A DNA stretch of 64,000 nt from Acidimicrobiaceae bacterium (GCA_041166745.1 JBEEGH010000002.1:151837-215836), one strand, 5' to 3'. Counted from the stretch's first letter, positions 5,852-49,467 are shown. Translations and numbers: made by a program. Notes: a model not told the origin generated them from the sequence alone.

Positions 5852-6580
5852 GTGCCGCGTTCGACGCGAGGCCCCGCCCTCCCCTACCGCCCCCTCGCCG
5901 GCGTCGTGCCGTGCGGCACCAAGTGGCTCGTCGCCGCCGGACGGTTGCAAGGCGTCACGCTCTCGTGCGCTGATCCCGAGTTGTTCGGTTCGTTGATCGA
6001 GATCCTCGACTACCGGCCGTCGTTCGAGGTGATCGCGCTCGGGTGCAACATCGGGTTGCCGACCAAGCCGGGGCAGGGCGGACGCACGTGCGATCGCGAG
6101 GCCCGTCGCCTGCTCGGATTCTCACGCGGCGGCGCCATCTTCTCGGCCCCGGCCCGCGTCGCCATCAAGGCCACCACGTACGACGACGCCTACAGGCTCA
6201 ACGACGGCATGGGCAGCGCGGCGTACAACATCCTGCCCCGCATCGCCGAGGTCGACGATGCGATCGAGCCCTACTGGCAACGCACGGTGTTCGAAGTGCA
6301 TCCCGAGCTGAGCTTCTATCAACTCAACGACGACGTGCCAATGCACCACGCCAAGCGAACGCACCACGGCCAGAACGAGCGACGGGCGTTGCTCGAGCGG
6401 CGCATGCAAGGCGTGCGCCAGATCATCGACGCTCGCGTGCGAGGCGCTCGCCGCCATCACCTCTTCGACGCGGCCGCCACGCTGTGGACGGCCAGGCGCA
6501 TCGCCGGACGAGTCGTCAATCGCGTGCCCGAAGACCCCGAGTGGGACGACAAGGGTCTCCGTATGGAGATCGTGCGCTAA
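5852..6580 (+). CDS. DUF429-family protein (predicted RNase H-like fold)
   Basis: 242 aa with the pattern GV.PCGTKWLVA...CDREARRLLG.SRGGAIFSAPAR...FEVHPELSFYQLN...AKRTHHGQNERRALL, which is typical of DUF429 as I remember it. Confidence 0.65.
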   Translation: MPRSTRGPALPYRPLAGVVPCGTKWLVAAGRLQGVTLSCADPELFGSLIEILDYRPSFEVIALGCNIGLPTKPGQGGRTCDREARRLLGFSRGGAIFSAPARVAIKATTYDDAYRLNDGMGSAAYNILPRIAEVDDAIEPYWQRTVFEVHPELSFYQLNDDVPMHHAKRTHHGQNERRALLERRMQGVRQIIDARVRGARRHHLFDAAATLWTARRIAGRVVNRVPEDPEWDDKGLRMEIVR

Positions 6581-6589
6581 CGCCTTCGC

Positions 6590-6790
6590 TCAGCCGTTGT
6601 CGAGTCGGCGGGTGAGGGTCGCCATGCCGTCGTATTCGAGGGACTCGACGGCTTCCTCGGATCTGCCGGTCATGTAGGCGACCTCTTCCAGCGGCAGTTG
6701 GAAGACGAGCCGCAACACGACGACATCCCGCTGGTCTGGGGGCAACGAGAGAAACGCGGTCACGAGCCGGGGTTCGAGCGGTTCATCCAC
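6590..6790 (-). pseudogene. ECF sigma-factor remnant (region 4 only)
   Basis: The 66-aa ORF LSLPPDQRDVVVLRLVFQLPLEEVAYMTGRSEEAVESL aligns to the C-terminus of the intact sigma factor at 7927..8397 (WSLTDEQREVVVLRFVADLSVEAVARMTDRSEGAVKSLQHRA). No region 2 is present, and there are stops immediately upstream. Confidence 0.5.
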
Positions 6791-6893
6791 GCGGTGGTAC
6801 GCGCGCGACTAGCCGCCCTGGTTGCATAGCTCTAGAAGCGGTCCAACCGCACGGAGCGTTACAGGCAACGTCGCCAACGCCGCCCGGGTGCGC

Positions 6894-6947
6894 GGCGAAC
6901 TCAGAGCGCTACGTCGACCTCTGGGTCGGAGTTGCGCTCTCAGAACG
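6894..6947 (+). repeat. Copy A of a conserved 54-55 nt hairpin element, 57 nt upstream of the purU ATG
   Basis: Sequence is ggcgaactcagagcgctacgtcgacctctgggtcggagttgcgctctcagaacg. GAGCGC pairs with GCGCTC and CGACC pairs with GGTCG. The flanks ggcgaact and agaacg are conserved. There are four copies in the window (6894, 7859, 33497, 34823). Confidence 0.85.
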
Positions 6948-7004
6948 AATCGGGAGAGCCGCTACCCTTGTTGTCGCGACTGGTCACCTCTTGTTGACGC
7001 TCTG

Positions 7005-7859
7005 ATGCCTGGTACCGGCGTCTTGTTGGTCGCTTGTCCTGATCGACCGGGCATCGTGGCCGCGGTGGCATCGTTTGTCGCCAGCCATGGCGGCAACGTC
7101 ATCGACCTCCAGCAACACACCGATCACACCGATGCCGCCTTCTTCCAACGCGTCGAGTTCGAGCTCGACCGCTTCGACCTCGCGCCCGACATGATCGCCA
7201 GCGCGTTCACACCCGTTGCGGAGCAGTTCGCGATGCGCTGGGCACTGCGCTTCTCCGATCAACGCCCGCGCGTGGCGCTGCTCGCGTCGAAGGAGCCCCA
7301 CTGCCTGCACGATCTGCTGAATCGGTGGCGCACCGGCGAGCTCGGAGTCGACATCGCGCTACTGGCCAGCAACCACCCCGACCACGCCGACCTTGCCCGC
7401 TGGTTCGGCGTCGACCATCACCACCTCCCCGTCGTCGACGGGCACAAGGACGCGCAGGAGGCCGAACTCAGCCGGCTCCTCCGCGACAACGACGTCGACC
7501 TCGTCGTGCTGGCCCGTTACATGCAGATCCTGTCGCCGCAGTTCTGTGCGGAATGGGCGGAGCGGATCATCAATATCCACCACTCGTTCCTGCCGGCGTT
7601 CCAAGGAGCGCGGCCCTACCACCAAGCCCACGAACGGGGCGTGAAGCTCGTCGGCGTCACGGCCCACTACGTGACCGCCGAGCTGGACGATGGGCCGATT
7701 ATCGACCAGGACGTGATCCGCGTGACCCACCGTGACGACGTCGACGACCTCCGCCGCAAGGGCCGAGACCTCGAGGTCAGCGTGCTTGCGCGTGCCGTGC
7801 GAGCCCACGTCGGACACCGCGTGCTGGTCTACGGCCGCCGCACCGTCGTGTTCGATTAG
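7005..7859 (+). CDS. purU: Formyltetrahydrofolate deformylase
   Basis: I chose the internal ATG at 7005 of ORF 6822..7859. The N-terminal ACT-like region is MPGTGVLLVACPDRPGIVAAVASFVASHGGNVIDLQQH. The formyltransferase core is DLVVLARYMQILS...IINIHHSFLPAFQGARPYHQAHERGVKLVGVTAHYVTAELDDGPII. Confidence 0.9.
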   Translation: MPGTGVLLVACPDRPGIVAAVASFVASHGGNVIDLQQHTDHTDAAFFQRVEFELDRFDLAPDMIASAFTPVAEQFAMRWALRFSDQRPRVALLASKEPHCLHDLLNRWRTGELGVDIALLASNHPDHADLARWFGVDHHHLPVVDGHKDAQEAELSRLLRDNDVDLVVLARYMQILSPQFCAEWAERIINIHHSFLPAFQGARPYHQAHERGVKLVGVTAHYVTAELDDGPIIDQDVIRVTHRDDVDDLRRKGRDLEVSVLARAVRAHVGHRVLVYGRRTVVFD

Positions 7860-7912
7860 TTGAACTCCGAGCGCTGCGTCGACCCCTGGGTCGTAGTTGC
7901 GCTCGTAGAACG
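7859..7912 (+). repeat. Copy B of the 54-55 nt hairpin element, between the convergent stops of purU and the ECF sigma gene
   Basis: Sequence is gttgaactccgagcgctgcgtcgacccctgggtcgtagttgcgctcgtagaacg. By hand alignment 46 of 54 positions are identical to copy A, in the same orientation. Confidence 0.85.
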
Positions 7913-7926
7913 ATTTGGACGCGTGG

Positions 7927-8397
7927 TCAGGCGTCGTCGAGGAAGCGGCCGAGCGTCGCCAGCGCGCGGTGTTGGAGCGACTTGACGGCTCCCTCGGATC
8001 TGTCGGTCATCCGTGCGACGGCTTCGACCGACAGGTCGGCGACGAATCGCAACACGACCACCTCGCGCTGTTCGTCGGTCAACGACCACAGCGCGGTCAT
8101 GAGCGTGTCATCGAACGGTTCATCGGACGACGGCGCGATCTCCGGCGTGCGTCGCACCGGAAGGCTGCGCCGCGAACGCTGACGGAATTCGTCGCGCAAC
8201 CGATTGCGAGCGATGGCGAAGACCCAGGAACGAAGCTCGTCTTCGGTCCCCCGGAACTTGGGAACGGCGCGGGTGATCGACACGAACACGTCGCCCAACA
8301 GATCATCGGCGTCGGGGGCTCCCGCGGCCGACAGATACGCGCGCACTCGCGGCGCGTGCTGTCGGAACACCCATTCGGCGTCCCAGTTCTCTGACAC
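7927..8397 (-). CDS. ECF-type RNA polymerase sigma-70 family factor
   Basis: 156 aa. Region 2 is DDLLGDVFVSITRAVPKFRGTEDELRSWVFAIARNRLRDEFR. Region 4 is LTDEQREVVVLRFVADLSVEAVARMTDRSEGAVKSLQHRALATL. Confidence 0.9.
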   Translation of the reverse strand: MSENWDAEWVFRQHAPRVRAYLSAAGAPDADDLLGDVFVSITRAVPKFRGTEDELRSWVFAIARNRLRDEFRQRSRRSLPVRRTPEIAPSSDEPFDDTLMTALWSLTDEQREVVVLRFVADLSVEAVARMTDRSEGAVKSLQHRALATLGRFLDDA

Positions 8398-8417
8398 GAC
8401 GGAAGCCTCCCATCGGG

Positions 8418-9035
8418 TCAGGGTGAGCTGGAGGACTCCGTCGATTCGCTCGAGTCCGTCGATGACAACTCGTCCGCCGATGACTCGTCGTCCGTCGTGC
8501 CGTTCGACTTGGACTTGTCCTTCCCCTTGTCGCCGGGAGCCTCGGAGCTCTCACTGGCGTCATCGTCGGACTCCGGCGCCTCGGACTCCGGCGCCTCGGA
8601 CTCCGGCGCATCGGACGCATCGGATCCGTCACTCCCGCCGATGGACTGCACCGGCTTCCCGCACGGCGACTGCCCGGCCGTCGGATCGTCCTTGTGTGTG
8701 CGGACGTACTCGCCATGGTTCTTGTACGGGCCCTCTGGACACGCGGTCGGGTCGTTGTATCGGTCGTGGCCCGCGGGCACGTTCACCCCGACCCGATCGA
8801 GGACTTCCTGGGCCTTGTCCTGCAACGAGGCCGGCAATGCTCCGGCCGATGCCAACCCCAGGCTGCCGACGAAGAACCCCACCACGGCGGCGCCGGCGAT
8901 CTTCGTGCGGGTGCGGCGGCGATGGACCGACCGTTGCTCGGTGCTGATGGTGGTCTCGACCTGCCGGGTGAGATCCGCATCCAAGGGTTGCGCACCGAAC
9001 CGTTGCAGGCGATCAGCTACGTCACGTTCGTCCAT
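8418..9035 (-). CDS. Single-pass membrane protein with an acidic Ser/Asp/Glu-rich extracytoplasmic tail, 21 nt upstream of the ECF sigma gene
   Basis: I chose the internal ATG at 9035 (MDERDVADRLQRFG...). The TM segment is IAGAAVVGFFVGSLGLASAGAL. The tail contains DAPESEAPESEAPES. The tracked N-terminal extension overlaps the neighbouring gene and looks spurious. Confidence 0.55.
   Translation of the reverse strand: MDERDVADRLQRFGAQPLDADLTRQVETTISTEQRSVHRRRTRTKIAGAAVVGFFVGSLGLASAGALPASLQDKAQEVLDRVGVNVPAGHDRYNDPTACPEGPYKNHGEYVRTHKDDPTAGQSPCGKPVQSIGGSDGSDASDAPESEAPESEAPESDDDASESSEAPGDKGKDKSKSNGTTDDESSADELSSTDSSESTESSSSP
8566..8610. repeat. Three tandem 15-bp in-frame repeats (tcggactccggcgcc)
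   Basis: Read directly. Units lie at 8566-8580, 8581-8595 and 8596-8610, and the last differs at 1 nt. They encode the SEAPE repeats of CDS 8418..9035. Confidence 0.85.
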
Positions 9036-18581: not shown

Positions 18582-21446
18582 TCAGCGCTTGCGCAGGCTG
18601 CGGGCCGTCAACCAGGTGGCCACCATGGTCACTTGACCGAACAGGAGCCACTTGCTCTTGCGGGCGGGTGTGGGCTTGCGACGACGACCAGAGCCGATCG
18701 ACGCGACGACCAGCACCGGCCGGGACAAGAGCTCGAACAACAAGCCCATCCCGAGCAGCACGATGGCCACGGTCACCCACTTCCCGACCAAGAAGCCGGT
18801 GCGGGCGAGCTTGGCAGGCGCAACGTCTTCCGGTGCGACTGCCACCGGCAAGATGTCGACGCTGTGGCTGTCGGAGTCGGAAGCCGTTTCACCCTCGATG
18901 TCGGTACCGGTGACCGTTGCGGTGTTCGGCAACGGATCGGGGTCGGTCGCCGTCACGACGTGGGTGCAGTTGTAGACCCACGTCTCGTCGACGGCCAACG
19001 TCGTGTCGCCGTTCCCGTCGTCGACGAGCACGACGGTGTTGGCATCGCACACCGGATCGCTGAAGACCACCGTGACCAAATCGTTGTTGCCGGTGTTCTT
19101 CACGCTCACCACGTACGTGATGGTGTCGCCCACCGATGCGGTGTCGGGGCCCGTCTTGGTGACGTCGACCCGATCACAACTGACGTGGATGGTGGCCGAG
19201 GAGCTGTCGTTGTTCTCCTGGTCGGCCGGCTTCTCGTTCGTGGCCGAGACCGTGGCCTTCGGGTTGACGATGTCGCCGCAGTTCTGCTCCGTGGTCGGCG
19301 CAGTGACCGTGACGGTCGCCGTGGTGCCCTTGGCCATGTCGCCGAAGTTGCAGCTCAGGTCGGTGCCGTTGGTGACGGTGCACGACGCGCTGTCGTCGGT
19401 CCAGGTGAGCCCTGACGGCAACGTGTCGGTGACCTGAACGCCGCGAGCGATGGCTCCGTCGTCACCACCGACGCTGGCCACGATCGTGAACGCTGCGTTG
19501 GTGCCGAAGCTGATGCTCGGATCGACGGCCGTCTTCGCCACCGTGACATCCGGATAGAGGATGTCGATCGACGCGTGGTCGGTCGAGCTGGTGTCGCGGC
19601 CGTAGTCGTCGGTACCGGTGACCTTGGCCGTGTTCAGCAGCGGATCGGTGTCTTGCATCGTGACGACGTGGCTGCACGTGTAGTGCCACGTCTCGCCGAC
19701 GGTGAGGTAGCCGTCGGAGCCGATGTCGCTGGCTCCTGGGCCCGTCGGGGCCGAGGCGCAGAGGGTGGTCTGCTCCTCGAGCGTGATGTCGTGCAACCGC
19801 GGACCGATGGTGGTCACGTCGAAGCTGTAGACGACGGTCTCACCGACGTTGGCGGTCGCACCCGCGCTCTTGTCCAGGCTGATGTTGATGGCCGAAAGGA
19901 TGTTGACGTAGTCGACAACGGCCGCTTCCGCGACGTTGCCCTGCGTGACCGTGACATTCACGTCGCCCGCCGAGTTGCTGTTCGGAGGGGCGACGGTCTC
20001 GGCAACGCGGTAGTCGCCGGTCGCGACCGGACCGATGTCGCAGGCCGCGTCACCGTTCTCGATCACACACGTGGCCGGGTCGCCGCTCGGCCAGAGCGTC
20101 GACTCTTCTCCGGCCTGCATCGAGCCGTTGTTGTTGGTGTCCTGATACAGCTGGAACGTCGTGCCGTCGAGCACGCTCGGGTCGCTCGGGTCGACGGTCT
20201 TGCCGTCGAGGTCATGCAGCACCTTGTCGATGTGCACGAATCCGGTTTGGCGCGGGTCGGTGAACGGCGCGCCCGTGAGATCGACGTCCTCACGGAACCC
20301 GACGGTCACCGGCCGGATCTCGGGATCCGGGTCGTAGCCGGTCGGAGCGGAGATCTCGTGGAGGAAGTAGTCGTCGGGTGCGACCATCGGGAACGAGCAG
20401 ATGCCTTGCGCGTTGCTCGTGCACGTGTAGACGGCCGTGCCGGTGGCGTTGGGGTCGTCGGAGGCGAACAGACCGAACTGCGCGCCCGGAAGCGGGTTGT
20501 CGGCGTCGTCGTTCTTCTGCAACTGCACCGAACCACAGGTCGAGACGTCGATGGTCGTCTGCGGCAGACGATCTTGCAGCGCCGAGTTGAACGACTCGCC
20601 GGACGAACGGCTGCGAATGTTGACGTGACCGAAGCCGGGACAGGCGAGCAAGCCGCCACCGGTGGCTTCGTCGAAGGCGACGAGGTCGACGGTGGCCTCA
20701 CCGAACTCGCGCACGCCGATCGGGTCGTTCGTGAACACGTCGGTGATCGGCTCGGCGTTCGTGCCACCGGCGGCGGAGCCGGCCGGGAGGGTGAAGCCCG
20801 CCCAGTTGCCCTTGCCGCTGTCGAGGGCCGCGTCCCACTGGAACGCGGTGATGTTGGCAACACCGCTTCCGCCGGGGAAGTCGAAGGTGATCAGGAGATC
20901 GCCGGTGGTGCGTCCGGTGAAGGGGCACGGGTTGGTGATGTTGTTGCGGTTGAACTCGAAGTTGACGTGGGCGTCGCCGGTGCCGGATTCGCGCACGAAG
21001 CCGAGATCGAGGAACGCGGTGGTCGGGTTGACGTCGGGCGGCCCGGTGATGCGGGTGTTCACGTAGGCGCGCAGGATGTTGTTCTTGCCGGGGTCAGCAC
21101 CGCCGGTGTTGCACACGAAAGTTTCCGGCGCGTTCTCTTTCGAGCTGCCCTTGTACCCAGAGTCGATGGTGTCGTCCGTGACTTGCGTGAGGACGCCCGT
21201 CGCGTTGTCCCAGTCCATCGTCCCGGTGACCGCGGGCTCTTCGACCATGTTGCCGTCGTCTTCGAACCCGCCGACGCTTCCGTTCGGCAGCGGTTGCGCG
21301 GCCGTTTGGAGCATGCCGAAGCCGGCGATCAACAACGTGGCTACTGCCGCGAGTCCGCCGAACCGGCGGCGCCGCTTCCTCGCCTTCGGTGTGCGTACAG
21401 CTGCATGACGTGCACGATGTGCAGGCTTCGCCATTTCTTTTCCCAC
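18582..21446 (-). CDS. Large LAXTG-anchored surface adhesin (N-terminal conserved domain, SpaA/Cna-B-like prealbumin-fold domains, DUF11-type repeats), paralog 1
   Basis: 954 aa. The signal peptide is RRRRFGGLAAVATLLIAGFGMLQTAAQP. A Cna-B-like segment reads GSVQLQKNDDADNPLPGAQFGLF...YFLHEISAPTGYDPD. DUF11-like repeats read DKSAGATANVGETVVYSFDV and VTKTGPDTASVGDTITYVVSVKNTGN. LARTG is encoded at 18795-18809 (ctcgcccgcaccggc on the coding strand), followed by a hydrophobic stretch and a basic cluster. Confidence 0.85.
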   Translation of the reverse strand: MGKEMAKPAHRARHAAVRTPKARKRRRRFGGLAAVATLLIAGFGMLQTAAQPLPNGSVGGFEDDGNMVEEPAVTGTMDWDNATGVLTQVTDDTIDSGYKGSSKENAPETFVCNTGGADPGKNNILRAYVNTRITGPPDVNPTTAFLDLGFVRESGTGDAHVNFEFNRNNITNPCPFTGRTTGDLLITFDFPGGSGVANITAFQWDAALDSGKGNWAGFTLPAGSAAGGTNAEPITDVFTNDPIGVREFGEATVDLVAFDEATGGGLLACPGFGHVNIRSRSSGESFNSALQDRLPQTTIDVSTCGSVQLQKNDDADNPLPGAQFGLFASDDPNATGTAVYTCTSNAQGICSFPMVAPDDYFLHEISAPTGYDPDPEIRPVTVGFREDVDLTGAPFTDPRQTGFVHIDKVLHDLDGKTVDPSDPSVLDGTTFQLYQDTNNNGSMQAGEESTLWPSGDPATCVIENGDAACDIGPVATGDYRVAETVAPPNSNSAGDVNVTVTQGNVAEAAVVDYVNILSAINISLDKSAGATANVGETVVYSFDVTTIGPRLHDITLEEQTTLCASAPTGPGASDIGSDGYLTVGETWHYTCSHVVTMQDTDPLLNTAKVTGTDDYGRDTSSTDHASIDILYPDVTVAKTAVDPSISFGTNAAFTIVASVGGDDGAIARGVQVTDTLPSGLTWTDDSASCTVTNGTDLSCNFGDMAKGTTATVTVTAPTTEQNCGDIVNPKATVSATNEKPADQENNDSSSATIHVSCDRVDVTKTGPDTASVGDTITYVVSVKNTGNNDLVTVVFSDPVCDANTVVLVDDGNGDTTLAVDETWVYNCTHVVTATDPDPLPNTATVTGTDIEGETASDSDSHSVDILPVAVAPEDVAPAKLARTGFLVGKWVTVAIVLLGMGLLFELLSRPVLVVASIGSGRRRKPTPARKSKWLLFGQVTMVATWLTARSLRKR

Positions 21447-21496: not shown

Positions 21497-22339
21497 TCAG
21501 GTCTCCTTGGCGGAGTCCGGCTCCGCGTAACGCAGGATCAACACGCCCGTGACCACGAGGGCACCGCCGAGAAGAAGCAGCCGGCCGGGATCGAAGCCGG
21601 TGCGGGCCAGGCCCGTGCCGGCGACGGCGTTGGCTTGGCTCGTGTTCTCACCGAGCAAGGAGCCGGTGGACGAAGACGTCGAGCTGCCCGCGACCGACCC
21701 GGTCGACGAGCTGCTGAGCGAGCTGCGACTCGTCGACGACCCCAACACCGAGCTGCTGCTCGACGACGAGCTGCTGGACGACGACGAGCTGGACGACGAC
21801 GAGCTGCTGCTCGACGAGGAGCTGGACGACGACGAGGAGCTGGACGACGACGAGCTACCGCCGGGGTTGGGCCCGCAGGTGTGACTGAGGTTCATCACGA
21901 CCGGCGGATCGACATCGGGATCCGAGTACCCGTAGGCGTCGAGCAGCGTGTCGGCCGTCGCGGTGAAGAGGTACCAGCCCTTGCCGCTCTGCACGACCGT
22001 TCCGCCCGTGACCGCGCCGGCGGTGTCGAACGTGGCCTCGACCGAGGTGAGGTCGGGCGCGCCGTCAACCGGGAAGCTCGGCACCACGAAATGCCAGCCG
22101 TACGGCTCGCCCTCGGGGACGGTGACGCCGCTGCAACTGCCCTCGAAACCGGATGCATACGACGCGCCGTAGAACGAGCTCTTCAAGAACGTGTCGGCGC
22201 CGGGAGGCGGGGTGTTCTGCGGCGGCTTGGCCGCATGAGCAGCGTCGAGCGCGAAGCCTCCGAGGATGAGGAAGACACCGGCGCCCAGGACGCCCACGCC
22301 GATCTTGCGCGAGGGGCTGCGCCGCGCCTTCTTCTTCAT
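21497..22339 (-). CDS. LAXTG-anchored surface protein with about 36 consecutive Ser residues
   Basis: I chose the internal ATG at 22339. The signal peptide is MKKKARRSPSRKIGVGVLGAGVFLILGGFALDAAHA. A globular region of about 130 aa is followed by a poly-Ser run and an S/T/G-rich linker. LARTG is encoded at 21596-21610, then GFDPGRLLLLGGALVVTGVLILRY. It ends 51 nt upstream of adhesin 1 on the same strand. Confidence 0.75.
   Translation of the reverse strand: MKKKARRSPSRKIGVGVLGAGVFLILGGFALDAAHAAKPPQNTPPPGADTFLKSSFYGASYASGFEGSCSGVTVPEGEPYGWHFVVPSFPVDGAPDLTSVEATFDTAGAVTGGTVVQSGKGWYLFTATADTLLDAYGYSDPDVDPPVVMNLSHTCGPNPGGSSSSSSSSSSSSSSSSSSSSSSSSSSSSSSSSSSSSVLGSSTSRSSLSSSSTGSVAGSSTSSSTGSLLGENTSQANAVAGTGLARTGFDPGRLLLLGGALVVTGVLILRYAEPDSAKET
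21749..21856. repeat. Low-complexity poly-Ser coding tract (mixed AGC/TCG/TCC codons)
   Basis: The run of Ser codons was counted by subtraction from the 327-aa ORF translation (about 36 Ser). The 5' boundary was checked against the sequence at 21854-21862, and the 3' boundary follows from that count. Confidence 0.8.
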
Positions 22340-25199: not shown

Positions 25200-28100
25200 T
25201 CAGGACGGACGGCGACGCAGGGCGGCGGGTGTGAGCTGCAAGGCGATGCCGATCGCGATGAACGCGAACCCGACGGCCACCCAATGCGACACGTCGAAGC
25301 CGGTGCGAGCGAGCAGTATCAACGGCAGCACGATGTCGATGTGCGCGGTGTCGGTGGCGCTGACCTGCTTGCCCAGCGGATCCGTAGCGGTGGCCGTGCC
25401 GAGGTTGTCGGTCGGTGAATCGCCGGTGATCGTGACCGTCTTGGTCAACGTCGCCGACGCACCAACCGCGAGCGATGCGATCGTGCCGATGTCGCCGAGC
25501 TTGTCGTCGGTCACCTTCACCGCGGTCAGCACACAGTCGCCGATGTTCTTCACGACATACGTGTAGGTCACGCTCTGCCCCGGCTCGACCGACACGGGGT
25601 TCGCTGTCTTGTCGATGGTGATGGCCGGATGGATGATGTCGACAGAGTGACTGGCTTCTCCGCCGGCGTCGCGACCGCGCACGTCCGTACCCGAGACCGT
25701 CGCGGTGTTGGGCAACGGGTCGGGATCGGATGCGGTCACGACGTGCGTGCAGTTGTACGTCCACGTCTCGCCGATCGCCAGCACGGAATCGCCGTTGCCG
25801 TCGTCGACGACGTGCAGGCTGTCGCCGTCACAGATCGGGTCGGAGAGATCGACGGTCACGAGATTGGCGAGGCCGTTGTTCTCCACGTCGATCACGTAGG
25901 TGATCGTGTCGCCGAGATGGGCGAACTGCGGTCCGTCCTTGATGATGCCGATGCTGATCGGGCAGAGCACGGTGATCTCCGCGGTGGAGGTGTTGTTCCC
26001 GGACTCACCCTCCGGCTCGTTCGACGACGAGACGTTGGCGGTGTTCGAGAGCACGCCGCAGTCGGCCACGTCGGTGAGCCCGGTCACGTGAATGGTGCGG
26101 GTGCTGCTCGGCGCCAGGTTGCCGAAGTCACAGGTGAGCAGCAGGCCGGTGATGCCGCAGTCCGCGCTGTCCTCGCTCCACGTGATACCCGCTGGCAGCG
26201 TGTCGGTCAGTTGCACGTCGTTCGACGTCTGCACGGCGTCGGTGCTCACCACGATGGTGAACGCCGCCGTGTCGCCGGCATCGATGATGTCGGTGTCGGC
26301 CGTCTTCAGCACCGACACGTCGCCACAGGTCACGTGCACCAGCACTTCGGCGCTGTCGTTGTTCGCCTGGGCCGACTGCCGCTCGTTCGTCGCGGTGATC
26401 GTCGCCTGGTTCACGATGTCGTCGCCGCAGTTCTCCGTCGACGTCGCGGCGCTGACGGTGACCGACGCGGTGGCGCCCTTGTTCATGTTGCCGAAGCTGC
26501 AATCGAGGTTGACGCCGCCGGTGATGAGGCAGTCGCCGTTGTTGCTCGACCACGTGAACCCGGCGGGCAGCGTGTCCGTCACGTGTACGTCTTGCGCAAT
26601 CGCGCCGTTGTCACCACCGACGTTCGCGGTGATCGTGAACGAAGCCGTCGCGCCCGCACTGATGGGGCTCGGGCCCGCCACCTTCGTCGAGGTCACGTCG
26701 GGGTACAGGATGTCGACCGACGCGTTGTCGGTGGACTCGACCGTCCGGCCGTAGTCGTCGGTGCCGGTGGCCTTGGCCGTGTTCACGAGCGGGTCGGTGT
26801 CCTGCATCGTGACCACGTGGCTGCACGAGTAATGCCACGTCTCGCCGACCTCGAGGAACCCGTTGCTGTTCGTGTCGCTGTTCGCCTGGAACACCGGGGC
26901 GGCGGCGCAGAGGGTGGTCTGCTCGTCGAGCGCGATGTTGTGCAGGCGCGGGCCGGTGGTGATCACGTTGAAGCTGTAGTTCACCGTGTCGCCCACGTTG
27001 GCCGTCGCGCCCGCGCTCTTGTCGAGCGCGATGTTGATCGCGTTGAGGATGTTCACGTAGTTGACGTTCACGGCTTGCTCGGCCGTGCCTTCGGTGACGG
27101 TCACGTTCACGTCGCCCGCCGACGCGCTGTTGGGCGGCGCCTGCGTCTCGGCCACGCGGTAGTTGCCGAGCTGGACGGGGCCGATCGTGCAGCCACTCGT
27201 CCCTCCGGCGATCGTGCACGTGGCCGCGTTGCCGCTGGGCCACAGGTGCGCGTCCTCGCCCGGGCTCTGGCGGGTGAGGTTGTTGTTCGCGTCCTTGTAC
27301 AGCGCGAACGCGGTGCCGTCGAGGATCGCAGCATTGCTGGGCGTCACCGTCTGGCCGTTGATGCCGTGCAGCACCTTGTTGATGTGCACGAAGCCGACCT
27401 TGGCCGGGTTCTCGTACGGCGTGGCGGTGAGGTCAACGGCCTGGCGGAAGCCGACCGTCACCTTCTGCGGTGCGCTCTCGTCGAGGTTGTAACCGGGTGG
27501 AGCCAAGGTCTCGGCGACCCAGTAGTCGGCCGGCGTCACGCTCGAGAACGTGCAAATGCCGAGGGCGTTGCTCGTGCAGGTGTAGATCGGGGCGCCGGTG
27601 GCATTGGCGTTGTCGAACAAACCGAACTGCGCGCCCGGGAGGGCGTGGCCGGCATCGTCGTTCTTCTTCAACTTCACCGAGCCGCACGTCGAGACGTCCA
27701 CGGTCGTCTGCGGCAGACGATCTTGCAGCGCGGCGTTGAACGATTCGCCGGACGAACGGCTGCGGATGTTCACATGGCCGAAGCCGGGGCAGGCGAGCAG
27801 CCCGCCGCCGATGGCGGTGTCGAACGCGACGAGGTCGACGGTGGCCTCACCGAACTCGCGCGAGCCGATGTTGCCGGTGGCGATGGTGTCGACGATCGTG
27901 CCGCTGTTGGTGTCGCCGGCCAACGAGCCGGCGGGAAGCAGCGACGTCGGAGACCAGTTCGACCCGTCCCACGAGAAGGTCGACAGGTCGGCGGTGCCAC
28001 CGCCGCCCGGGAAGTCGAACGTGATGAGGATGTCGTTGGGGCTGCGCCCCTCGAACGGACACTGATTGGTGATGTTGTTGCGGTTGAACTCGAAGTTGAT

Positions 28101-28526
28101 GTGCGCGTCACCGTTGCCGGCGGCGCGCACGAATGCGAGGTCGAGGAACGCGGTCGTCGGGTTGAGGTTGAGCGGGCCGGTGATGCGCGTGTTCACGTAG
28201 GCGCGCAGGATGTTGTTCTTGCCGGGGCTCGCCCCGCCGGTGTTGCAGGCGAAGTTCTCGGGCTCGTTCTCTTTCGACGAGCCCTGGTAGCCGCTGTCGA
28301 TGGAGTCGTCGGTCGCGGTGACGAGCGTGCCGGTGGCGTTGCTCCAGTCCATCGTCCCGGTGACCGCGGCCTGCTCGATCATGTTGCCGTCGTCCTCGAA
28401 GCCGCCGACGCTGCCGCTGCTGAGCGGCTGCCCGGTTGCTTGAAGTACGCCGATTGTGGCCAAAAGCACTGCAGTCATCGCCGCGACGCCGACCAGCCGC
28501 CGCGCACGCATCGTGCGCTTCTTCAT
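25200..28526 (-). CDS. Large LAXTG-anchored surface adhesin, paralog 2 (longer, with more DUF11-type repeats)
   Basis: I chose the internal ATG at 28526 (MKKRTMRARRLVGVAAMTAVLLATIGVLQATGQP). The N-terminal roughly 300 aa are collinear with paralog 1 (GSVGGFEDDGNM.E.AVTGTMDW.NATG...ILRAYVNTRITGP...FEFNRNNITN.CPF). LARTG is encoded at 25299-25313, followed by FDVSHWVAVGFAFIAIGIALQL and RRRPS. Confidence 0.85.
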   Translation of the reverse strand: MKKRTMRARRLVGVAAMTAVLLATIGVLQATGQPLSSGSVGGFEDDGNMIEQAAVTGTMDWSNATGTLVTATDDSIDSGYQGSSKENEPENFACNTGGASPGKNNILRAYVNTRITGPLNLNPTTAFLDLAFVRAAGNGDAHINFEFNRNNITNQCPFEGRSPNDILITFDFPGGGGTADLSTFSWDGSNWSPTSLLPAGSLAGDTNSGTIVDTIATGNIGSREFGEATVDLVAFDTAIGGGLLACPGFGHVNIRSRSSGESFNAALQDRLPQTTVDVSTCGSVKLKKNDDAGHALPGAQFGLFDNANATGAPIYTCTSNALGICTFSSVTPADYWVAETLAPPGYNLDESAPQKVTVGFRQAVDLTATPYENPAKVGFVHINKVLHGINGQTVTPSNAAILDGTAFALYKDANNNLTRQSPGEDAHLWPSGNAATCTIAGGTSGCTIGPVQLGNYRVAETQAPPNSASAGDVNVTVTEGTAEQAVNVNYVNILNAINIALDKSAGATANVGDTVNYSFNVITTGPRLHNIALDEQTTLCAAAPVFQANSDTNSNGFLEVGETWHYSCSHVVTMQDTDPLVNTAKATGTDDYGRTVESTDNASVDILYPDVTSTKVAGPSPISAGATASFTITANVGGDNGAIAQDVHVTDTLPAGFTWSSNNGDCLITGGVNLDCSFGNMNKGATASVTVSAATSTENCGDDIVNQATITATNERQSAQANNDSAEVLVHVTCGDVSVLKTADTDIIDAGDTAAFTIVVSTDAVQTSNDVQLTDTLPAGITWSEDSADCGITGLLLTCDFGNLAPSSTRTIHVTGLTDVADCGVLSNTANVSSSNEPEGESGNNTSTAEITVLCPISIGIIKDGPQFAHLGDTITYVIDVENNGLANLVTVDLSDPICDGDSLHVVDDGNGDSVLAIGETWTYNCTHVVTASDPDPLPNTATVSGTDVRGRDAGGEASHSVDIIHPAITIDKTANPVSVEPGQSVTYTYVVKNIGDCVLTAVKVTDDKLGDIGTIASLAVGASATLTKTVTITGDSPTDNLGTATATDPLGKQVSATDTAHIDIVLPLILLARTGFDVSHWVAVGFAFIAIGIALQLTPAALRRRPS

Positions 28527-28637
28527 CTGTTCCACCCGTCCGTTGACTGCTCTCACGCAGTGTGTTCTGGCCACTCACGTAGAGCAATCACTGACCGCCC
28601 AACTCTTCGCGGACGATTCGGACACAGAGGTCGAATC

Positions 28638-32256: not shown

Positions 32257-33366
32257 TCAGCCCGTGGGTGGCGGTTGGTCCGAACCCGCTCGCAACGCGC
32301 TGAAGAGTTGGACGAAGTCGGTTCGCACCGCCGCCTCGTGCAACGCCGGGTCGTAGGCCGGCGTGGCCAGTTGATCCTCGATGGCGTCGAGACGCTCGCT
32401 GAGCCGTTGCATCGCCGCCTCGACCGACTTGGACAGCTCCACGCTCACCATCGACAGCGCGTCGCGCATCACCGACTCGAATGCCGCAATTCGGGCGTCC
32501 ACGTCTGCCGCTGTCGTCGCGTCGACCTCGGCTGTCCTCGCTTCGACGCCGCGCAGAGCGGACTCGAACACCGCCAGCCTCGCGTCTACGTCTGCGGTCG
32601 CGGCCTCGGCGTCGCGCTCTCGCTCCGCGACCGCGATGGTCTCGCGCTCGTTGGCGGCCAGCGTGACCGTCTCGACGTCGAGCGACAAGCCGCTCATCGA
32701 CGCTTCGATGGCGGCGAGACGGCGCGTCAAGACGGCGAAGCGCTCGTCGAGCACAAACGTCGACGCTCCGGCCGTCGCCGTGGTCGGCTCGAGCCGCGCG
32801 ATCACGTCGGTGTCGAGCTCGCCGCCGCTATGTGCCGACCAGTCGGCCAAGCGTTTGCGCCACCGTCGCAACGCGGGCACATCGCCACCTGCATCCGAGC
32901 GGTCGGTGAAGGTCTCTGCGTTGGGAAGCTGGAAGAGCACACGGTCGTGCGTGCGCACGATCGCCGTCCATCGCAAACCTTGGGCCGTGCACGCGACGAG
33001 CTCCGACGCGGCGCGCTCCTCGTCCGAATGATCGGCCACTGCGGTGAGCGCTTCGACCGGATCGTCGAAGTCGCGCGTCGCGATCGGCGTCAGGTCGCCG
33101 GTCTGGAAGCAGTCGACCGTCCAGGTCACGGCGTGGTCGATCGGATCGGGGCTGAGGAGGCGGCGCAGTTCATCGGCGGAGCCGGCGAGCGCAAGACTGA
33201 ACAGCCACCGCGCCGCTTCGGCGCTCGCGTCGAGGAATCCTTCGGTTTCGGTTTTCTGCACGCTCAGCCGCACCGCGGCGACGCGGAACCCTCGCCCGGC
33301 GCGCGGATCGGCCGCGATGTCCGCCTGCATCACCCGCTCACTTGCGTCCAACGGTGATCCTCCCAC
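32257..33366 (-). CDS. Hypothetical protein with an internally repeated coiled-coil C-terminal half
   Basis: 369-aa ORF (GTG at 33366, with ATG at 33330 as an alternative). Repeated segments are ADVDARLAVFESALRGVEARTAEVD and ADVDARIAAFESVMRDA. Confidence 0.5.
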   Translation of the reverse strand: MGGSPLDASERVMQADIAADPRAGRGFRVAAVRLSVQKTETEGFLDASAEAARWLFSLALAGSADELRRLLSPDPIDHAVTWTVDCFQTGDLTPIATRDFDDPVEALTAVADHSDEERAASELVACTAQGLRWTAIVRTHDRVLFQLPNAETFTDRSDAGGDVPALRRWRKRLADWSAHSGGELDTDVIARLEPTTATAGASTFVLDERFAVLTRRLAAIEASMSGLSLDVETVTLAANERETIAVAERERDAEAATADVDARLAVFESALRGVEARTAEVDATTAADVDARIAAFESVMRDALSMVSVELSKSVEAAMQRLSERLDAIEDQLATPAYDPALHEAAVRTDFVQLFSALRAGSDQPPPTG

Positions 33367-33496: not shown

Positions 33497-33550
33497 CGTT
33501 CTCAGAGCGCAAACACGACCGGGGGGTCGACGGTGCGCTCCAAGTTCGCC
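33497..33550 (-). repeat. Copy C of the 54-55 nt hairpin element (A-orientation on the minus strand), 130 nt upstream of CDS 32257..33366
   Basis: The reverse complement is ggcgaacttggagcgcaccgtcgaccccccggtcgtgtttgcgctctgagaacg. By hand alignment 43 of 54 positions are identical to copy A. Confidence 0.85.
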
Positions 33551-33918
33551 GAAGGGCGGCGTGTCGTCCGCGTCGCTTGTGTCGTCTGGGTCAAGCGCCG
33601 CGCCACCAGCGAAGTGCGCGCCACCGTCCACTCGCCGCTGTCTCAAGCGGAGAACGCGGGCGAGATCATCTTCGGCCTCACCGTTGCGGTGGTTGCCGGG
33701 GCCGCATCAACCACCGTGGCCCTCTCGCCTCCGCCGAATTGGTTGCTGTCGCGGGTGCTCTCGTGATCGCGACGCGCGATGACCCATAGGTTCGGCGCGC
33801 TGGACGTGCTGGGTCAGCGGAGTGCTCCGGGAAGCTCGTCGATGGCGACGACGGACGCCGAGAGTCGCCATGGGAGCGCGCTACCCTTTTGCGAACCTCG
33901 ACGACACGGAGGCGGGCA

Positions 33919-34424: not shown

Positions 34425-34757
34425 TCAGTGCGCGTCCTCGACCTTCAGCTGCGGTGGCGGCGAGAACGCAACGCCGCCCACGGCGACGAATCCCACCTCG
34501 GTGTACTGGATGCCGTCGTCGCTCCACGGCTGCACGTGTTCCACCGTCTGGCGGCTCGGCGACTCACCCGTGGCGGTAGCGCTGAGGTTGAGCATGAGCA
34601 TCTGCGGGTTGATGCCTTGTTCCTCGCGCGGTTCCAACCCGAGAGCGACGCCGCCACCCTCCACGATGCACGTTCCGGAGACGCGAAGCGTCTTGCCCAT
34701 GAAGTCGTGAACCGCGTGCCAGTCCTCGTACTCGACAGCAATCTCTGCTCTTGCCAT
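34425..34757 (-). CDS. Hypothetical protein (110 aa)
   Basis: I chose the internal ATG at 34757, preceded by GGGAGG. Sequence reads MARAEIAVEYEDWHAVHDFMGKTLRVSGTCIVEGGGVALGLEPREEQGINPQMLMLNL... Repeat copy D lies 65 nt upstream in the leader. Confidence 0.5.
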   Translation of the reverse strand: MARAEIAVEYEDWHAVHDFMGKTLRVSGTCIVEGGGVALGLEPREEQGINPQMLMLNLSATATGESPSRQTVEHVQPWSDDGIQYTEVGFVAVGGVAFSPPPQLKVEDAH

Positions 34758-34822
34758 GTCGGCCTCCCGATTGGCCACGCGCGACAGCCACCGTAGTGAT
34801 CCGGTTCTTTCGGGTGCGCCGA

Positions 34823-34877
34823 CGTTCTCAGAGCGCCAACCCGACCGATGGGTCGACTGTGCGCTCGGAGTTTCGCC
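34823..34877 (-). repeat. Copy D of the 54-55 nt hairpin element (A-orientation on the minus strand)
   Basis: The reverse complement is ggcgaaactccgagcgcacagtcgacccatcggtcgggttggcgctctgagaacg (55 nt, with one extra a). Confidence 0.85.
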
Positions 34878-39019: not shown

Positions 39020-40119
39020 CCGAGCTGCGGGCCCTGCGGATCTATCACTCCGCCGTGGTCAGTGATTGGCGACGCCGAGACCGCGAGCTGCGACGGCACG
39101 CGATCGATCTCGTGCTGTTGAGCCCTCGGCGTTGGAACGAGGGCGGCGAAGTCGTGGAGTTCGACTCGACCGGCGACGACTTTGTGCACGCCATCTCCAC
39201 TTTCGGACAGCACCCGTTCCGATTCGTGTATGCGCCGTGGTCGCTCTGGCGCGCGTTTCGTGAACGTCCGTTGGACATCATCGATACGCACGAGGAGCCA
39301 GCCAGCCTTGCGGTCGGCGAGGTGCTCGTGCTGCGACGGCTGCTACAACCTCGCGCCAAGCTGCTCCTTTACTGCGCGGAGAACATCCCGAAGCGCTATC
39401 CAGTTCCATTCCGTTGGATCGAGCGGTGGGCGCTGCGGTCCGCGTCGGCCGTTTACTGCTGCAATGAAGCCGCCGCGACGATCATCCGATCGAAAGGTTT
39501 CAGGGGCGAGATCGAAGTGCTGGGACTCGGCGTTGACGTCGACCAACTCGCCCCCGAGCCAGCGTCGCGTCAACGTGCGGGCTTGCACCTCGGGTACGTC
39601 GGCCGCCTCGATGAACGCAAAGGCGTCCAGGTTGTCCTGGATGCCTTGACGCAGTTGCCGGACTCGGTGACCTTCACCATTGCGGGTACCGGCCCGTATG
39701 CCGGCGCACTACAAGCCAAGGCGCGCGATACCGGCCTGGGCGATCGAGCCCGCTTCCTGAGCTACGTCGATCACGCGCAGGTCGCACAGCTGTACCGCAC
39801 CTTCGACGCGGTCGTTGTGCCTTCGTTGCCGACGAAGCGCTGGCACGAGCAGTTCTGTCGAGTGGCCGTCGAGGCCATGACCACCGGCGCGCCTGTCATC
39901 GCTTCGGATGACGGTGCGCTTCCTGAGGTGGTGGGCCCGGGCGGGGTGACGGTGCCAGCCGGAGATGTGCACGCCTGGGTCGAGGCGATCAAGTTGTTCG
40001 CCAATGACGCCGAACTCCGCGCGAGATACAGCGAACAGGCGCGGCAGTGGGCTGATCGTTACTCGTGGCCGGCGATTGCGGAACGACACGCAGAGCTCTA
40101 CGCGCGAGTCGCCCGGTGA
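39016..40119 (+). CDS. GT4-family glycosyltransferase
   Basis: GTG at 39016 overlaps the upstream stop (GTGA). Sequence reads VTELRALRIYHSAVVSDWRRRDREL... and HLGYVGRLDERKGVQVVLDA...WHEQFCRVAVEAMTTGAPVIASDDGALPEVV. Confidence 0.8.
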   Translation: MTELRALRIYHSAVVSDWRRRDRELRRHAIDLVLLSPRRWNEGGEVVEFDSTGDDFVHAISTFGQHPFRFVYAPWSLWRAFRERPLDIIDTHEEPASLAVGEVLVLRRLLQPRAKLLLYCAENIPKRYPVPFRWIERWALRSASAVYCCNEAAATIIRSKGFRGEIEVLGLGVDVDQLAPEPASRQRAGLHLGYVGRLDERKGVQVVLDALTQLPDSVTFTIAGTGPYAGALQAKARDTGLGDRARFLSYVDHAQVAQLYRTFDAVVVPSLPTKRWHEQFCRVAVEAMTTGAPVIASDDGALPEVVGPGGVTVPAGDVHAWVEAIKLFANDAELRARYSEQARQWADRYSWPAIAERHAELYARVAR

Positions 40120-43277: not shown

Positions 43278-43292
43278 CTCGCGAGCAGAAGG

Positions 43293-48265: not shown

Positions 48266-49467
48266 CAGCCGGATCCATCGATAACGGGTATACGGGAGTC
48301 GAATCTGCCGAGATTCGGCTGGTCCAGGATGGCCTGGAGGTATCTAGCGACCCTCGCTGGCGCATGCGTCGCCTCGACGTGCGCGCGTGCAGCGACGGCA
48401 AGGCGATTGAGTCGCGAAGGATCGGCAAGCAGCTGTGCCAACTGCTCCGCAAAGGTGCCGTCCTCGCCTACGAGGTTTACGCCCGCGATATCGAGGCAGG
48501 CTGCCGAACCTCGTGCATCATTACTTGCGACCGCACACCCAGCCGCCAAGCCAGACAGGATCGGCCCGCTCGCCGCCGCCAAGTTAGCTGGGGAGCTCGT
48601 GCGCGAACGGAGCCGGATGACCGCGGTGGCGGTTGCATAGCTTCGGTCCAATCCTGCCTGATCGAGAAACCCGGTGAACTCAAGCCTGTGGCCTAGTCCA
48701 ACGGCCCGGAAACGTTGTTCTACTCGATGCCGTTCGCTCTCCGACAGATTCCCTACCCGCAATCTGAAGCGGGACGGGATCGAGCCCGTCTCAAATGCCG
48801 TGAGCACCGGATCGAGATCATCGGCGCTCAGCCTCGCCGGGCAGTAGACAGCGGGGTCTTTCGGCAGATCGGGCAAGCGATCGATCGGTAGCGGAATTGG
48901 TCGCACCCGAGAATGCGAACAGCGAGCGCTCAATGACTGTGCGCCCATGTTCGAGAATGTGAGCACCATGTCAGCGCTGCTCAGCAACCATCGTTCGACG
49001 CGCCGGCCGATCGAGCCCGAAAGCGCCATGCCCACGCGACGGCCACCGCGGCGATCGAAAATTGAGAAGAGCATGGACGCTCCGACGAGATCCGGAGCAT
49101 CGTGAGCGACCAGCCAGACCCTCGGGGCCCGGCGCGCGGCGCAGAGGAGGCAGGCTGCGTACAGCTCAGCGAGTGCGCGACCCGACAGATCAACGACAAC
49201 AAGATCGACATGACCAGACCGAACCCGGCGTCGAGCCGCTAGCGCAAGTTTCACGACCGACCTCAACCTCTGCGTCCCCGCTGCATCGACAGCGAGACCG
49301 AGCGTCTCGCGCGGACCTATCTGGTCGAGCGCACGATCGAAAGCCCCTGCGTGCCGCGCGATGCCACTATCTGACGGCGGCACCTTGGTTATGTGCAAGA
49401 TGCGAGGCGGGTTGTTACGAGCAACCGCGGATGGCCCGGGTTCCCACTCAATACAGGTTCGGGCCAT
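48265..49467 (-). CDS. Probable GT-B (GT1/GT4-like) glycosyltransferase
   Basis: I chose the internal ATG at 49467. Sequence reads RILHITKVPPSDSGIARHAGAFDRAL and LEFTGFLDQAGLDRSYATATAVI. The similarity is weak. Confidence 0.45.
   Translation of the reverse strand: MARTCIEWEPGPSAVARNNPPRILHITKVPPSDSGIARHAGAFDRALDQIGPRETLGLAVDAAGTQRLRSVVKLALAARRRVRSGHVDLVVVDLSGRALAELYAACLLCAARRAPRVWLVAHDAPDLVGASMLFSIFDRRGGRRVGMALSGSIGRRVERWLLSSADMVLTFSNMGAQSLSARCSHSRVRPIPLPIDRLPDLPKDPAVYCPARLSADDLDPVLTAFETGSIPSRFRLRVGNLSESERHRVEQRFRAVGLGHRLEFTGFLDQAGLDRSYATATAVIRLRSRTSSPANLAAASGPILSGLAAGCAVASNDARGSAACLDIAGVNLVGEDGTFAEQLAQLLADPSRLNRLAVAARAHVEATHAPARVARYLQAILDQPNLGRFDSRIPVIDGSG

What the first reader, a model, noticed from the sequence alone, without database searches (positions are those of the whole stretch)
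6894..7912. Conserved 54-nt hairpin element flanks purU on both sides (two of four copies in the window)
- **Seen in sequence.** Copy A (6894-6947) and copy B (7859-7912) have the same orientation and are 46/54 identical by hand alignment. Reverse complements of two more copies occur at 33497-33550 and 34823-34877.
- The consensus is ggcGAACTy.GAGCGC...GTCGACC(3-4 nt)GGTCG...TTGCGCTC..AGAACG.
- Two helices (GAGCGC/GCGCTC and CGACC/GGTCG) are invariant. The internal and apical loops vary. The unpaired flanks GAACT and AGAACG are also conserved, which a plain terminator would not need.
- Copy A lies 57 nt upstream of the purU ATG. Copy B starts at the last base of the purU stop codon and ends 15 nt from the stop of the convergent ECF sigma gene.
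- **Inference.** The element could be a cis-regulatory leader RNA, a protein-binding palindrome, a REP-like intergenic repeat or a small mobile hairpin. I do not recognise it as a named RNA family.
Basis: seen in the sequence. Interest (0 to 1): 0.65.

Follow-up and report, generated by a model that had tools for sequence, protein, structure and literature searches.

The report
Lineage-specific repeated hairpin element, REP-like
The 54-nt hairpin on both sides of purU is real, but it is one copy-family of a short palindromic repeat scattered through the intergenic DNA of one uncultured Acidimicrobiaceae genome, not a purU-specific regulatory RNA.

Summary
Four copies of a ~54-nt imperfect palindrome sit at the stated coordinates, where none is expected by chance. 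Three more diverged copies lie 8-9 kb beyond the window's right end on the same contig, a 994-kb JGI metagenome contig of an Acidimicrobiaceae MAG.

The seven copies neighbour unrelated genes: purU, hypothetical genes and an AbiEi-DUF559 nuclease-like gene. They lie in divergent, convergent and co-directional gaps, and three sit at or over a stop codon.

There is no Rfam match and no covariation. The outer stem GAGCGC/GCGCTC is invariant, and variation falls in the loops. The more diverged copies carry uncompensated stem mismatches, and one (E2) no longer folds into the hairpin.

The element is absent from purU loci of relatives (88/85/82% PurU identity) and from the closest syntenic relative. 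It is also absent from 185,579 species-representative genomes and from the metagenome, viral, plasmid and phage collections.

The best reading is a young, lineage-restricted REP/MITE-like hairpin repeat. It resembles the mycobacterial TRIT motif and proteobacterial REPs but belongs to neither. A leader RNA or riboswitch is not supported.

One oddity remains. All seven copies occur in same-orientation clusters bracketing genes (P about 0.02), which leaves a small chance of a recombination or cassette role.

The parts
6894..6947 (+). Copy A of the hairpin repeat. It lies in the divergent gap between a 66-aa sigma region-4 fragment (6590-6790, -) and purU (7005-7859, +).
   Evidence: 80 bits, E 7e-23.
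7859..7912 (+). Copy B. It starts on the last base of the purU stop codon and ends 14 nt from the stop of the convergent ECF sigma gene.
   Evidence: 79.8 bits.
33497..33550 (-). Copy C. It lies in the divergent gap between the 357-aa hypothetical gene (32257-33330, -) and a called 77-aa ORF whose GTG start (33533) lies inside the element.
   Evidence: (79.3 bits).
34823..34877 (-). Copy D (AAACT instead of GAACT, with one extra base). It lies in the divergent gap between the 111/117-aa hypothetical gene (34425-34778, -) and the CbiA/ParA-like gene (35036-36598, +).
   Evidence: 2 mismatches; 71.5 bits.
48914..48957 (-). Doubtful relic copy. It has a CGAAC..GGGCGCACAGTC / GAGCGCTC..TGTTCG outline but lacks the inner stem-loop.
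   Evidence: (15.9 bits, E about 0.05) and the sequence. Not reliable.
6590..6787 (-). Diverged duplicate (73% nt, 54% aa) of the 3' end of the ECF sigma gene (7927-8124). Together the two duplicates bracket the A-purU-B segment. This is context, not part of the repeat itself.
   Evidence: (D6).

Best explanation
The element is a short interspersed palindromic repeat of the REP/MITE kind, private to this Acidimicrobiaceae lineage.

Its consensus is (c)GGC-GAACT-NN-GAGCGC-NNNGT-CGACC-N4-GGTCG-NNNTN-GCGCTC-NN-AGAACG. As single-stranded DNA or RNA it folds into one hairpin. That hairpin has two G+C-rich stems, a 5x5 internal loop and a conserved AA/AA mismatch near its foot.

Copies arose recently from a common source and landed in intergenic DNA or right at the 3' ends of genes. 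They are now decaying slowly.

The most likely mode of spread is a trans-acting enzyme, encoded elsewhere in the genome, that recognises the folded hairpin together with its conserved foot sequence. That would explain why stem sequences are held constant while loops drift. This step is inferred, not shown.

When a copy lies behind a gene (B, E1, E3) it will be transcribed as a stable 3' stem-loop. There it may incidentally stop or stabilise transcripts, as REPs and the mycobacterial TRIT motif are thought to do. It is not a purU-specific regulator.
For: Shown:
- Seven copies occur in about 76 kb of one contig, four in the window and three in L067. The window is 100% identical to that contig.
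- The neighbouring genes are unrelated: purU, an ECF sigma, hypothetical proteins and an AbiEi+DUF559 protein.
- The gaps occupied are 3 divergent, 2 convergent and 1 co-directional. Three copies abut or overlap a stop codon.
- There is no Rfam family.
- Covariation is no better than shuffled controls: 1 pair with a double change, matched by 308/500 shuffles.
- The more diverged copies show uncompensated stem mismatches, and E2 no longer folds (z +0.87).
- Variation avoids the stems: 4 of 22 core-stem columns vary against 26 of 52 overall (P about 1e-4). The outer stem is unchanged in 84/84 cells.
- The element is absent at purU in relatives with 88, 85 and 82% PurU identity. It is absent at the sigma/T2SSE junction of the closest syntenic relative and from 20 kb around it.
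- It is absent from the GTDB species representatives, both metagenome scans, viral contigs, plasmids and phages.
- Both DNA strands fold about equally well.
Against: - No transposase, RAYT or other recombinase lies in the about 76 kb examined, so mobility is inferred only.
- No empty site or target-site duplication could be demonstrated.
- The genome-wide copy number is unknown, because only 8% of the contig could be read.
- Three of six occupied gaps are divergent promoter regions, which classical REPs tend to avoid.
- All copies sit in same-orientation clusters bracketing genes (P about 0.02), which a purely random scatter does not predict.
- Strong sequence constraint on the stems would also fit a protein-binding site with a host function.
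Confidence: 0.6

Rival explanations
1. The element has a host function as a conserved-sequence stem-loop at transcript ends. It would act as a factor-assisted or bidirectional terminator, an insulator or an mRNA 3'-end stabiliser, like the mycobacterial TRIT motif, and is kept by selection rather than spread selfishly.
For: - B lies exactly between the convergent purU and sigma genes. E1 starts 5 nt after a stop codon, and E3 overlaps a stop codon.
- TRIT is likewise a sequence-conserved, palindromic, lineage-restricted hairpin placed on stop codons (PMC3152330).
- The stems are under sequence constraint.
- G.U outnumbers A.C 9:3 on the strand that is sense to the neighbouring genes.
Against: - No copy has a U-tract on either strand, and the terminator scan finds nothing at the elements.
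- A, C and D lie in divergent promoter gaps, where no transcript end is expected.
- The syntenic relative manages the sigma/T2SSE convergence with 5 nt and no hairpin.
- Diverged copies decay without compensation.
Confidence: 0.17
2. The element is a recombination site that bounds mobile gene cassettes. Genes flanked by two direct copies (A-purU-B; D-ORF111/117...-C; E2-AbiEi/DUF559-E3) would be excised and inserted by a hairpin-recognising recombinase or nuclease, in an integron-attC-like or novel way.
For: - All seven copies are in clusters. Within each cluster the copies share one orientation, which is also that of the bracketed gene. The clustering has P about 0.02.
- The layout is compact and cassette-like, with the element at the stop codon and the next element 44-82 nt before a start.
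- purU with A and B lies in a spot that is rearranged relative to the closest syntenic relative, which has neither purU nor the element there.
- An AbiEi-DUF559 (PD-(D/E)XK-type) gene is itself bracketed by copies.
- Conserved unpaired bases in a folded hairpin recall attC sites.
Against: - No integrase or other recombinase lies within about 76 kb.
- The R''/R' consensus (RYYYAAC / GTTRRRY) is not present at the foot of the hairpin, by inspection.
- The extra DNA relative to the syntenic relative is not bounded by A and B: it also contains DUF429 and a sigma fragment.
- A second gene insertion in the window with the same duplicated-flank signature has no hairpins.
- The orientation and clustering statistics are weak, resting on three clusters.
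Confidence: 0.08
3. The element is a double-stranded DNA operator for a transcription factor or nucleoid protein, bound as nested palindromes (GAGCGC-N24-GCGCTC and CGACC-N4-GGTCG), that co-regulates the neighbouring genes.
For: - Four copies (A, C, D, E2) lie 44-166 nt upstream of start codons.
- The stem sequences are constrained.
- The gene next to E2 carries an AbiEi-type DNA-binding domain. From general knowledge, members of that family autoregulate through inverted repeats.
Against: - Three copies sit at gene 3' ends or inside a coding end.
- The genes have no common function.
- A 54-bp site with conserved non-palindromic positions and a hairpin-optimised layout is atypical for operators.
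- The element is not conserved in relatives.
Confidence: 0.08
4. The element is a cis-regulatory leader RNA or riboswitch controlling purU and other genes.
For: A, D and E2 are in the sense orientation 44-82 nt upstream of start codons, and the hairpin is stable.
Against: - No Rfam hit and no covariation.
- The same element follows purU as well as preceding it.
- The neighbouring genes are unrelated.
- It is absent upstream of purU in every relative examined.
- The structure is a single simple hairpin with no ligand-pocket-like architecture.
Confidence: 0.03

Closest known systems
REP / REPIN elements of Proteobacteria (with RAYT transposases)
   Same: Both are short imperfect palindromes repeated many times in extragenic DNA. 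Both are often clustered and often lie immediately downstream of genes. In both, stems are conserved in sequence within a genome and the family is lineage-specific (PMC2817692).
   Different: - There is no GT(A/G)G head.
- The unit is 54 nt with two stems and a 5x5 internal loop, rather than 20-40 nt.
- Clustered copies are in direct, not alternating or inverted, orientation.
- No RAYT (Y1 transposase) lies in the 76 kb examined.
- The host is an actinobacterium, whereas RAYT/REP systems were described from Proteobacteria.
- Half of the occupied gaps are divergent promoter regions.
TRIT (Tuberculosis Rho-independent terminator) motif of Mycobacterium
   Same: Both are sequence-conserved, palindromic, genus- or lineage-restricted hairpins in a high-G+C actinobacterium. 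Both have many copies, and both place copies on or next to stop codons. TRIT has 147 copies, centred around -8 from the stop (PMC3152330).
   Different: The sequence is different. Only 3 (4 counting the tandem E2) of 7 copies here are at gene ends, and the others lie in divergent promoter gaps. No termination evidence exists for either strand here.
Integron attC sites / CALIN clusters
   Same: Both are imperfect palindromes of similar minimal length (about 55-60 nt) with conserved unpaired positions. Copies are in direct orientation bracketing single genes, with the site directly after the stop codon.
   Different: There are no RYYYAAC/GTTRRRY core sites at the foot of the hairpin. No integrase is nearby. 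There is no array: the clusters are 26 and 37 kb apart. The bracketed purU is a housekeeping-type gene.
Bacterial MITEs (e.g. Correia/NEMIS, ERIC, RUP)
   Same: Both are non-coding, repeated, hairpin-forming, intergenic and lineage-restricted. Copies sometimes extend or truncate neighbouring ORFs (E3 supplies the last 13 codons and the stop of a gene).
   Different: This element is much shorter than typical MITEs (100-400 bp). No terminal inverted repeats of a known IS and no variable target-site duplications are seen. The GAAC at both ends is the same in nearly every copy.

Membership tests
REP/REPIN-RAYT system | Short (20-40 nt) imperfect palindrome with a conserved GT(A/G)G head. | tested here: not met
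   The consensus from 7 copies starts (c)GGCGAACT and has no GTAG/GTGG head. The unit is 54 nt.
REP/REPIN-RAYT system | A RAYT (IS200/IS605-like Y1 transposase) gene flanked by two inverted REPs in the same genome. | not testable with these tools
   No Y1_Tnp-like gene appears in the gene tables or Pfam scans of about 76 kb. The remaining >900 kb of the contig and the rest of the MAG could not be read.
REP/REPIN-RAYT system | High copy number (>100 per genome), extragenic, mostly clustered. | tested here: inconclusive
   There are 7 copies in about 76 kb (about 1 per 11 kb), all extragenic or at gene ends and all clustered. The genome-wide number is unknown.
TRIT-type conserved terminator hairpin | Copies concentrated at gene termini, overlapping or next to stop codons. 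| tested here: inconclusive
   B, E1 and E3 are at stop codons. A, C and D are in divergent gaps.
TRIT-type conserved terminator hairpin | Match to the TRIT sequence or covariance model, with distribution within Mycobacterium. | not tested
   I had no TRIT model or TRIT sequence to compare against, and I did not check whether Rfam 15 contains one, so the lack of Rfam matches does not settle this. The host is Acidimicrobiaceae, outside the reported Mycobacterium-only distribution.
Canonical intrinsic terminator | G+C-rich hairpin followed by a U-tract. | tested here: not met
   No T-run follows any copy on either strand, and the terminator scan finds none at the elements.
Integron attC site | R''(RYYYAAC)/R'(GTTRRRY) core sites forming the outer stem, L''/L' boxes with an extrahelical base, and an intI integrase or an attC array nearby. 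| tested here: not met
   The outermost paired bases are CGAACT/AGAACG. GTT occurs only inside the 3' internal loop and cannot pair with the 5' AAC without crossing the outer stem. No integrase lies in 76 kb. No attC covariance model was available, so this is a test by inspection.
Riboswitch / cis-regulatory leader RNA | Conserved upstream of functionally related genes across species, with covariation supporting the fold. | tested here: not met
   no covariation; absent in relatives; unrelated genes; no Rfam family.

The most novel reading that the evidence does not exclude
The hairpins are the recognition sites of an undescribed hairpin-directed gene-insertion system in Acidimicrobiia. Single genes bracketed by two direct copies (purU; the ORF111/117 block; the AbiEi-DUF559 gene) would be mobile cassettes. 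The bracketed AbiEi-DUF559 PD-(D/E)XK protein, or another enzyme elsewhere in the genome, would be the hairpin-specific nuclease or recombinase. That would make it a functional analogue of integron attC/IntI or REP/RAYT built from different parts.
Probability: 0.07. Interest if true: 0.75.

Novelty: new member of a known kind. Interest (0 to 1): 0.3.

Why it matters
This gives a concrete, well-delimited example of a REP-like hairpin repeat in Acidimicrobiia, a poorly studied and mostly uncultured actinobacterial class in which I know of no described repeat family of this kind.

Such repeats matter in practice. They mislead gene callers: two ORF calls here start or stop inside the element. They mimic regulatory RNAs, they mark recently rearranged DNA, and they can serve as strain markers.

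The same-orientation bracketing of genes and the strict sequence conservation of the stems point to a hairpin-recognising protein. Identifying it would be of real interest, but nothing in the present evidence requires more than an ordinary selfish or neutral repeat.

Tried and rejected
1. Rfam at gathering thresholds and permissively at all three clusters. Only noise appeared: Ms_AS-4 at 20 bits against a gathering score of 50, and mir-9191 at 21.6 against 100.

2. A genome-contig scan with the two-stem core returned 42 single hits in unrelated phyla. None had the GAACT/AGAACG flanks, so I treated them as chance or coding palindromes.

3. Two metagenome scans. With flanks and inner stem fixed and the outer stem free there were 0 hits. 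With flanks and outer stem fixed and the centre free there were 10 unrelated hits. The source contig itself is evidently not in that collection.

4. A viral-contig scan and plasmid and phage BLAST found nothing relevant.

5. Conservation with purU. Loci of PurU homologues at 88, 85 and 82% identity have different neighbours and no element. L046 has an unrelated perfect hairpin upstream of purU.

6. A test of whether the C-D segment is an insertion failed. Homologues of ORF357 in relatives lie in non-syntenic (eCIS) contexts.

7. One contig look-up was wasted on ORF111 with a start codon that is not the one on record.

8. Extended-flank alignment of the four copies showed no conserved promoter or other motif beyond the element. 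The sigma-70 promoter scan found nothing.

9. I tried reading the GAAC direct repeats at both ends as a target-site duplication. This could not be tested without an empty site. E1 has GGTTCG instead, which gives a fully paired foot.

10. I first thought the window differed from the JGI contig (strain variation). BLAST showed 100% identity; only the gene callers differ.

11. A search for an equivalent repeat family in the relatives' loci by self-BLAST found none.

Full report
**Observation.** A full-length degenerate pattern with up to 3 mismatches finds exactly these four and none in 100 shuffles. A and B are 46/54 identical. The two helices GAGCGC/GCGCTC and CGACC/GGTCG are invariant in the window, the apical loop is 4 nt, and a 5x5 internal loop separates the helices.

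The 'unpaired' flanks are in fact a continuation of the palindrome. CGAACT and AGAACG give four pairs around a conserved AA/AA mismatch. Each copy folds far better than shuffles, and about equally well on both strands (z -2.6 to -4.4). The gene identifications hold: purU 7005-7859 has ACT + Formyl_trans_N, and the convergent ECF sigma gene is 7927-8397.

**Source and further copies.** The window is 100% identical to part of a 994-kb JGI metagenome contig (3300044807, Ga0467037_0000001). NCBI holds it as an Acidimicrobiaceae MAG.

A covariance model built from the four copies finds nothing more in the window. In the 9.4 kb just beyond the right end it finds three further, more diverged copies, all on the + strand:
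- E1, L067 18980-19037, 5 nt after the stop of a 415-aa gene.
- E2, L067 19098-19156, 82 nt before a 318-aa gene.
- E3, L067 20153-20209, which overlaps that gene's end and supplies its last 13 codons and its stop codon.

The 318-aa protein is an AbiEi-type N-terminal domain fused to a DUF559 nuclease-like domain. That makes seven copies in about 76 kb, roughly one per 11 kb. A weak eighth candidate at 48914-48957 lacks the inner stem-loop.

**What the copies tell.** The neighbouring genes have nothing in common: purU, an ECF sigma and a sigma fragment, hypothetical proteins with no Pfam or NCBIfam family, a ParA/CbiA-like protein and the AbiEi-DUF559 protein.
- A, C and D lie in divergent gaps.
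- B and E3 lie in convergent gaps.
- E1 and E2 share one co-directional gap.

In divergent and convergent gaps every orientation is 'sense' to one neighbour. The apparent rule that all copies are sense to an adjacent gene therefore carries almost no information.

On the seven-copy alignment there is no covariation beyond shuffled controls. Variation is strongly non-random. Half of all columns vary, but only 4 of 22 core-stem columns do (P about 1e-4), and the outer stem is unchanged in all 84 cells. The stem changes that do occur in E1-E3 are one wobble and two uncompensated mismatches. E2 has lost the fold altogether.

E1 carries GGTTCG instead of AGAACG, which turns the mismatched foot into a perfect stem. 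The left half of E3 looks like the reverse complement of a right half. This points to a basically symmetric element that occasionally re-symmetrises, not to selection on an RNA.

G.U outnumbers A.C 9:3 on the reference strand, which is too few to decide strand-specific folding.

**Comparative evidence.** purU loci of relatives with 88, 85 and 82% PurU identity have other neighbours and no element.

The closest syntenic relative is L059, with 68% sigma identity and the same pilus/Wzy/sigma/T2SSE neighbourhood. There the sigma and T2SSE stop codons are 5 nt apart, with no element and no purU, and no copy occurs in 20 kb. In our genome that junction holds DUF429, a diverged duplicate of the sigma 3' end, then A, purU and B. 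The A-purU-B segment therefore sits in a rearranged spot, but the extra DNA is not bounded by the hairpins.

No related element exists in the 185,579 species-representative genomes, in two differently designed metagenome scans, in viral contigs, or in plasmids and phages. No equivalent repeat family turned up in the relatives' loci. The family is thus young and narrowly distributed.

**Interpretation.** These properties are those of a REP/MITE-like interspersed palindromic repeat:
- many copies in one genome;
- unrelated neighbours;
- extragenic or gene-end positions;
- no covariation, and decay of older copies;
- absence from close relatives.

The sequence constraint on the stems suggests the folded hairpin is recognised by a protein, either the enzyme that spreads it or a host factor. 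That step is inferred. Copies behind genes will be transcribed as stable 3' stem-loops and may incidentally affect transcript ends. None has a U-tract, however, and the terminator scan finds nothing. A purU leader RNA or riboswitch is not supported.

**Comparison with known families.** It works most like proteobacterial REPs and the mycobacterial TRIT motif, but it is a member of neither.
- Against REPs: it lacks the GT(A/G)G head, the 20-40-nt size and the inverted arrangement, and no RAYT was seen in the region I could read (PMC2817692).
- Against TRIT: TRIT is a Mycobacterium-restricted hairpin concentrated on stop codons (PMC3152330). Only three or four of the seven copies here are at gene ends. 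I had no TRIT model or sequence for a direct comparison.
- Against integron attC sites: length, conserved unpaired bases and direct-orientation bracketing of single genes recall attC. The R''/R' core sites and any integrase are missing.

**Residual oddity.** All seven copies have a neighbour within 1.5 kb (P about 0.02 against random placement in intergenic DNA). Within each of the three clusters the copies share the orientation of the bracketed gene. With three clusters this is weak evidence. It still keeps a small probability for a recombination or cassette role, and makes the AbiEi-DUF559 gene between E2 and E3 worth a look.

**Limits.** Only about 8% of the contig could be read, and all protein-search and contig look-up quotas were used. 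Genome-wide copy number, the presence of a cognate enzyme and empty sites remain untested.

**Verdict.** It is a new, lineage-private member of the known class of short palindromic interspersed repeats, of modest interest.

Noticed in passing
window 6590-6787 vs 7927-8124; and 43100-43290 vs 44470-44650: Two single genes are each bracketed by diverged direct duplicates of the 3' end (including the stop codon) of the neighbouring gene. purU is bracketed by the sigma region-4 end (73% nt). An Acyl_transf_3 gene (43293-44345, -) is bracketed by the last ~190 nt of the glycosyltransferase 40065-43277 (~78%). This looks like a recurrent signature of gene insertion carrying a partial flank. Only the purU case has hairpins.
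   Followed up: partly
L067 19238-20194 (window-equivalent 72099-73055, beyond the window): A 318-aa AbiEi (PADLOC E 4e-27) + DUF559 nuclease-like gene is bracketed by hairpin copies E2 and E3. E3 encodes its last 13 codons and its stop codon. It is a candidate hairpin-binding or hairpin-cutting protein, but the association may be chance.
   Followed up: partly
window 33533-33766 (+) and L067 20153-20194: Gene callers start or end ORFs inside the element. The JGI 77-aa ORF starts at a GTG inside copy C, and the same element frame gives '..SQSANTT.GS..' peptides in two unrelated ORFs. These are likely annotation artefacts caused by the repeat.
   Followed up: partly
window 18582-21446 (-) and 25200-28574 (-): Two large paralogous SpaA/DUF11/DUF7507 surface proteins (954 and 1124 aa) share 71-82% nucleotide identity over most of their length, 7.1 kb apart. 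Glycosyltransferase (PMT, GT87) genes lie between them.
   Followed up: no
window 45542-47278 and 48266-49447: Two unusually long stretches (1.7 and 1.2 kb) without a convincing gene call lie inside a polysaccharide-biosynthesis cluster of lower G+C. The second holds the doubtful relic hairpin at 48914-48957.
   Followed up: no
L059 8477-10483 vs window 5852-9035: In the closest syntenic relative the DUF429 gene lies between the Wzy/TPR gene and the gene upstream of sigma. Here it lies between T2SSE and the sigma fragment. The locus has been reshuffled around the sigma gene.
   Followed up: partly
L063, L065 (relatives) vs window 32257-33330: Homologues of the 357-aa hypothetical protein next to copy C sit, in relatives, directly upstream of Septum_form/DUF4280 genes and an extracellular contractile injection system (eCIS) locus. 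In this genome the gene is next to a class A penicillin-binding protein instead.
   Followed up: no
window 21659-21865: An acidic Asp/Glu/Leu-rich tandem-repeat coding stretch (15-18-nt period) lies in a small ORF between the surface-protein genes.
   Followed up: no
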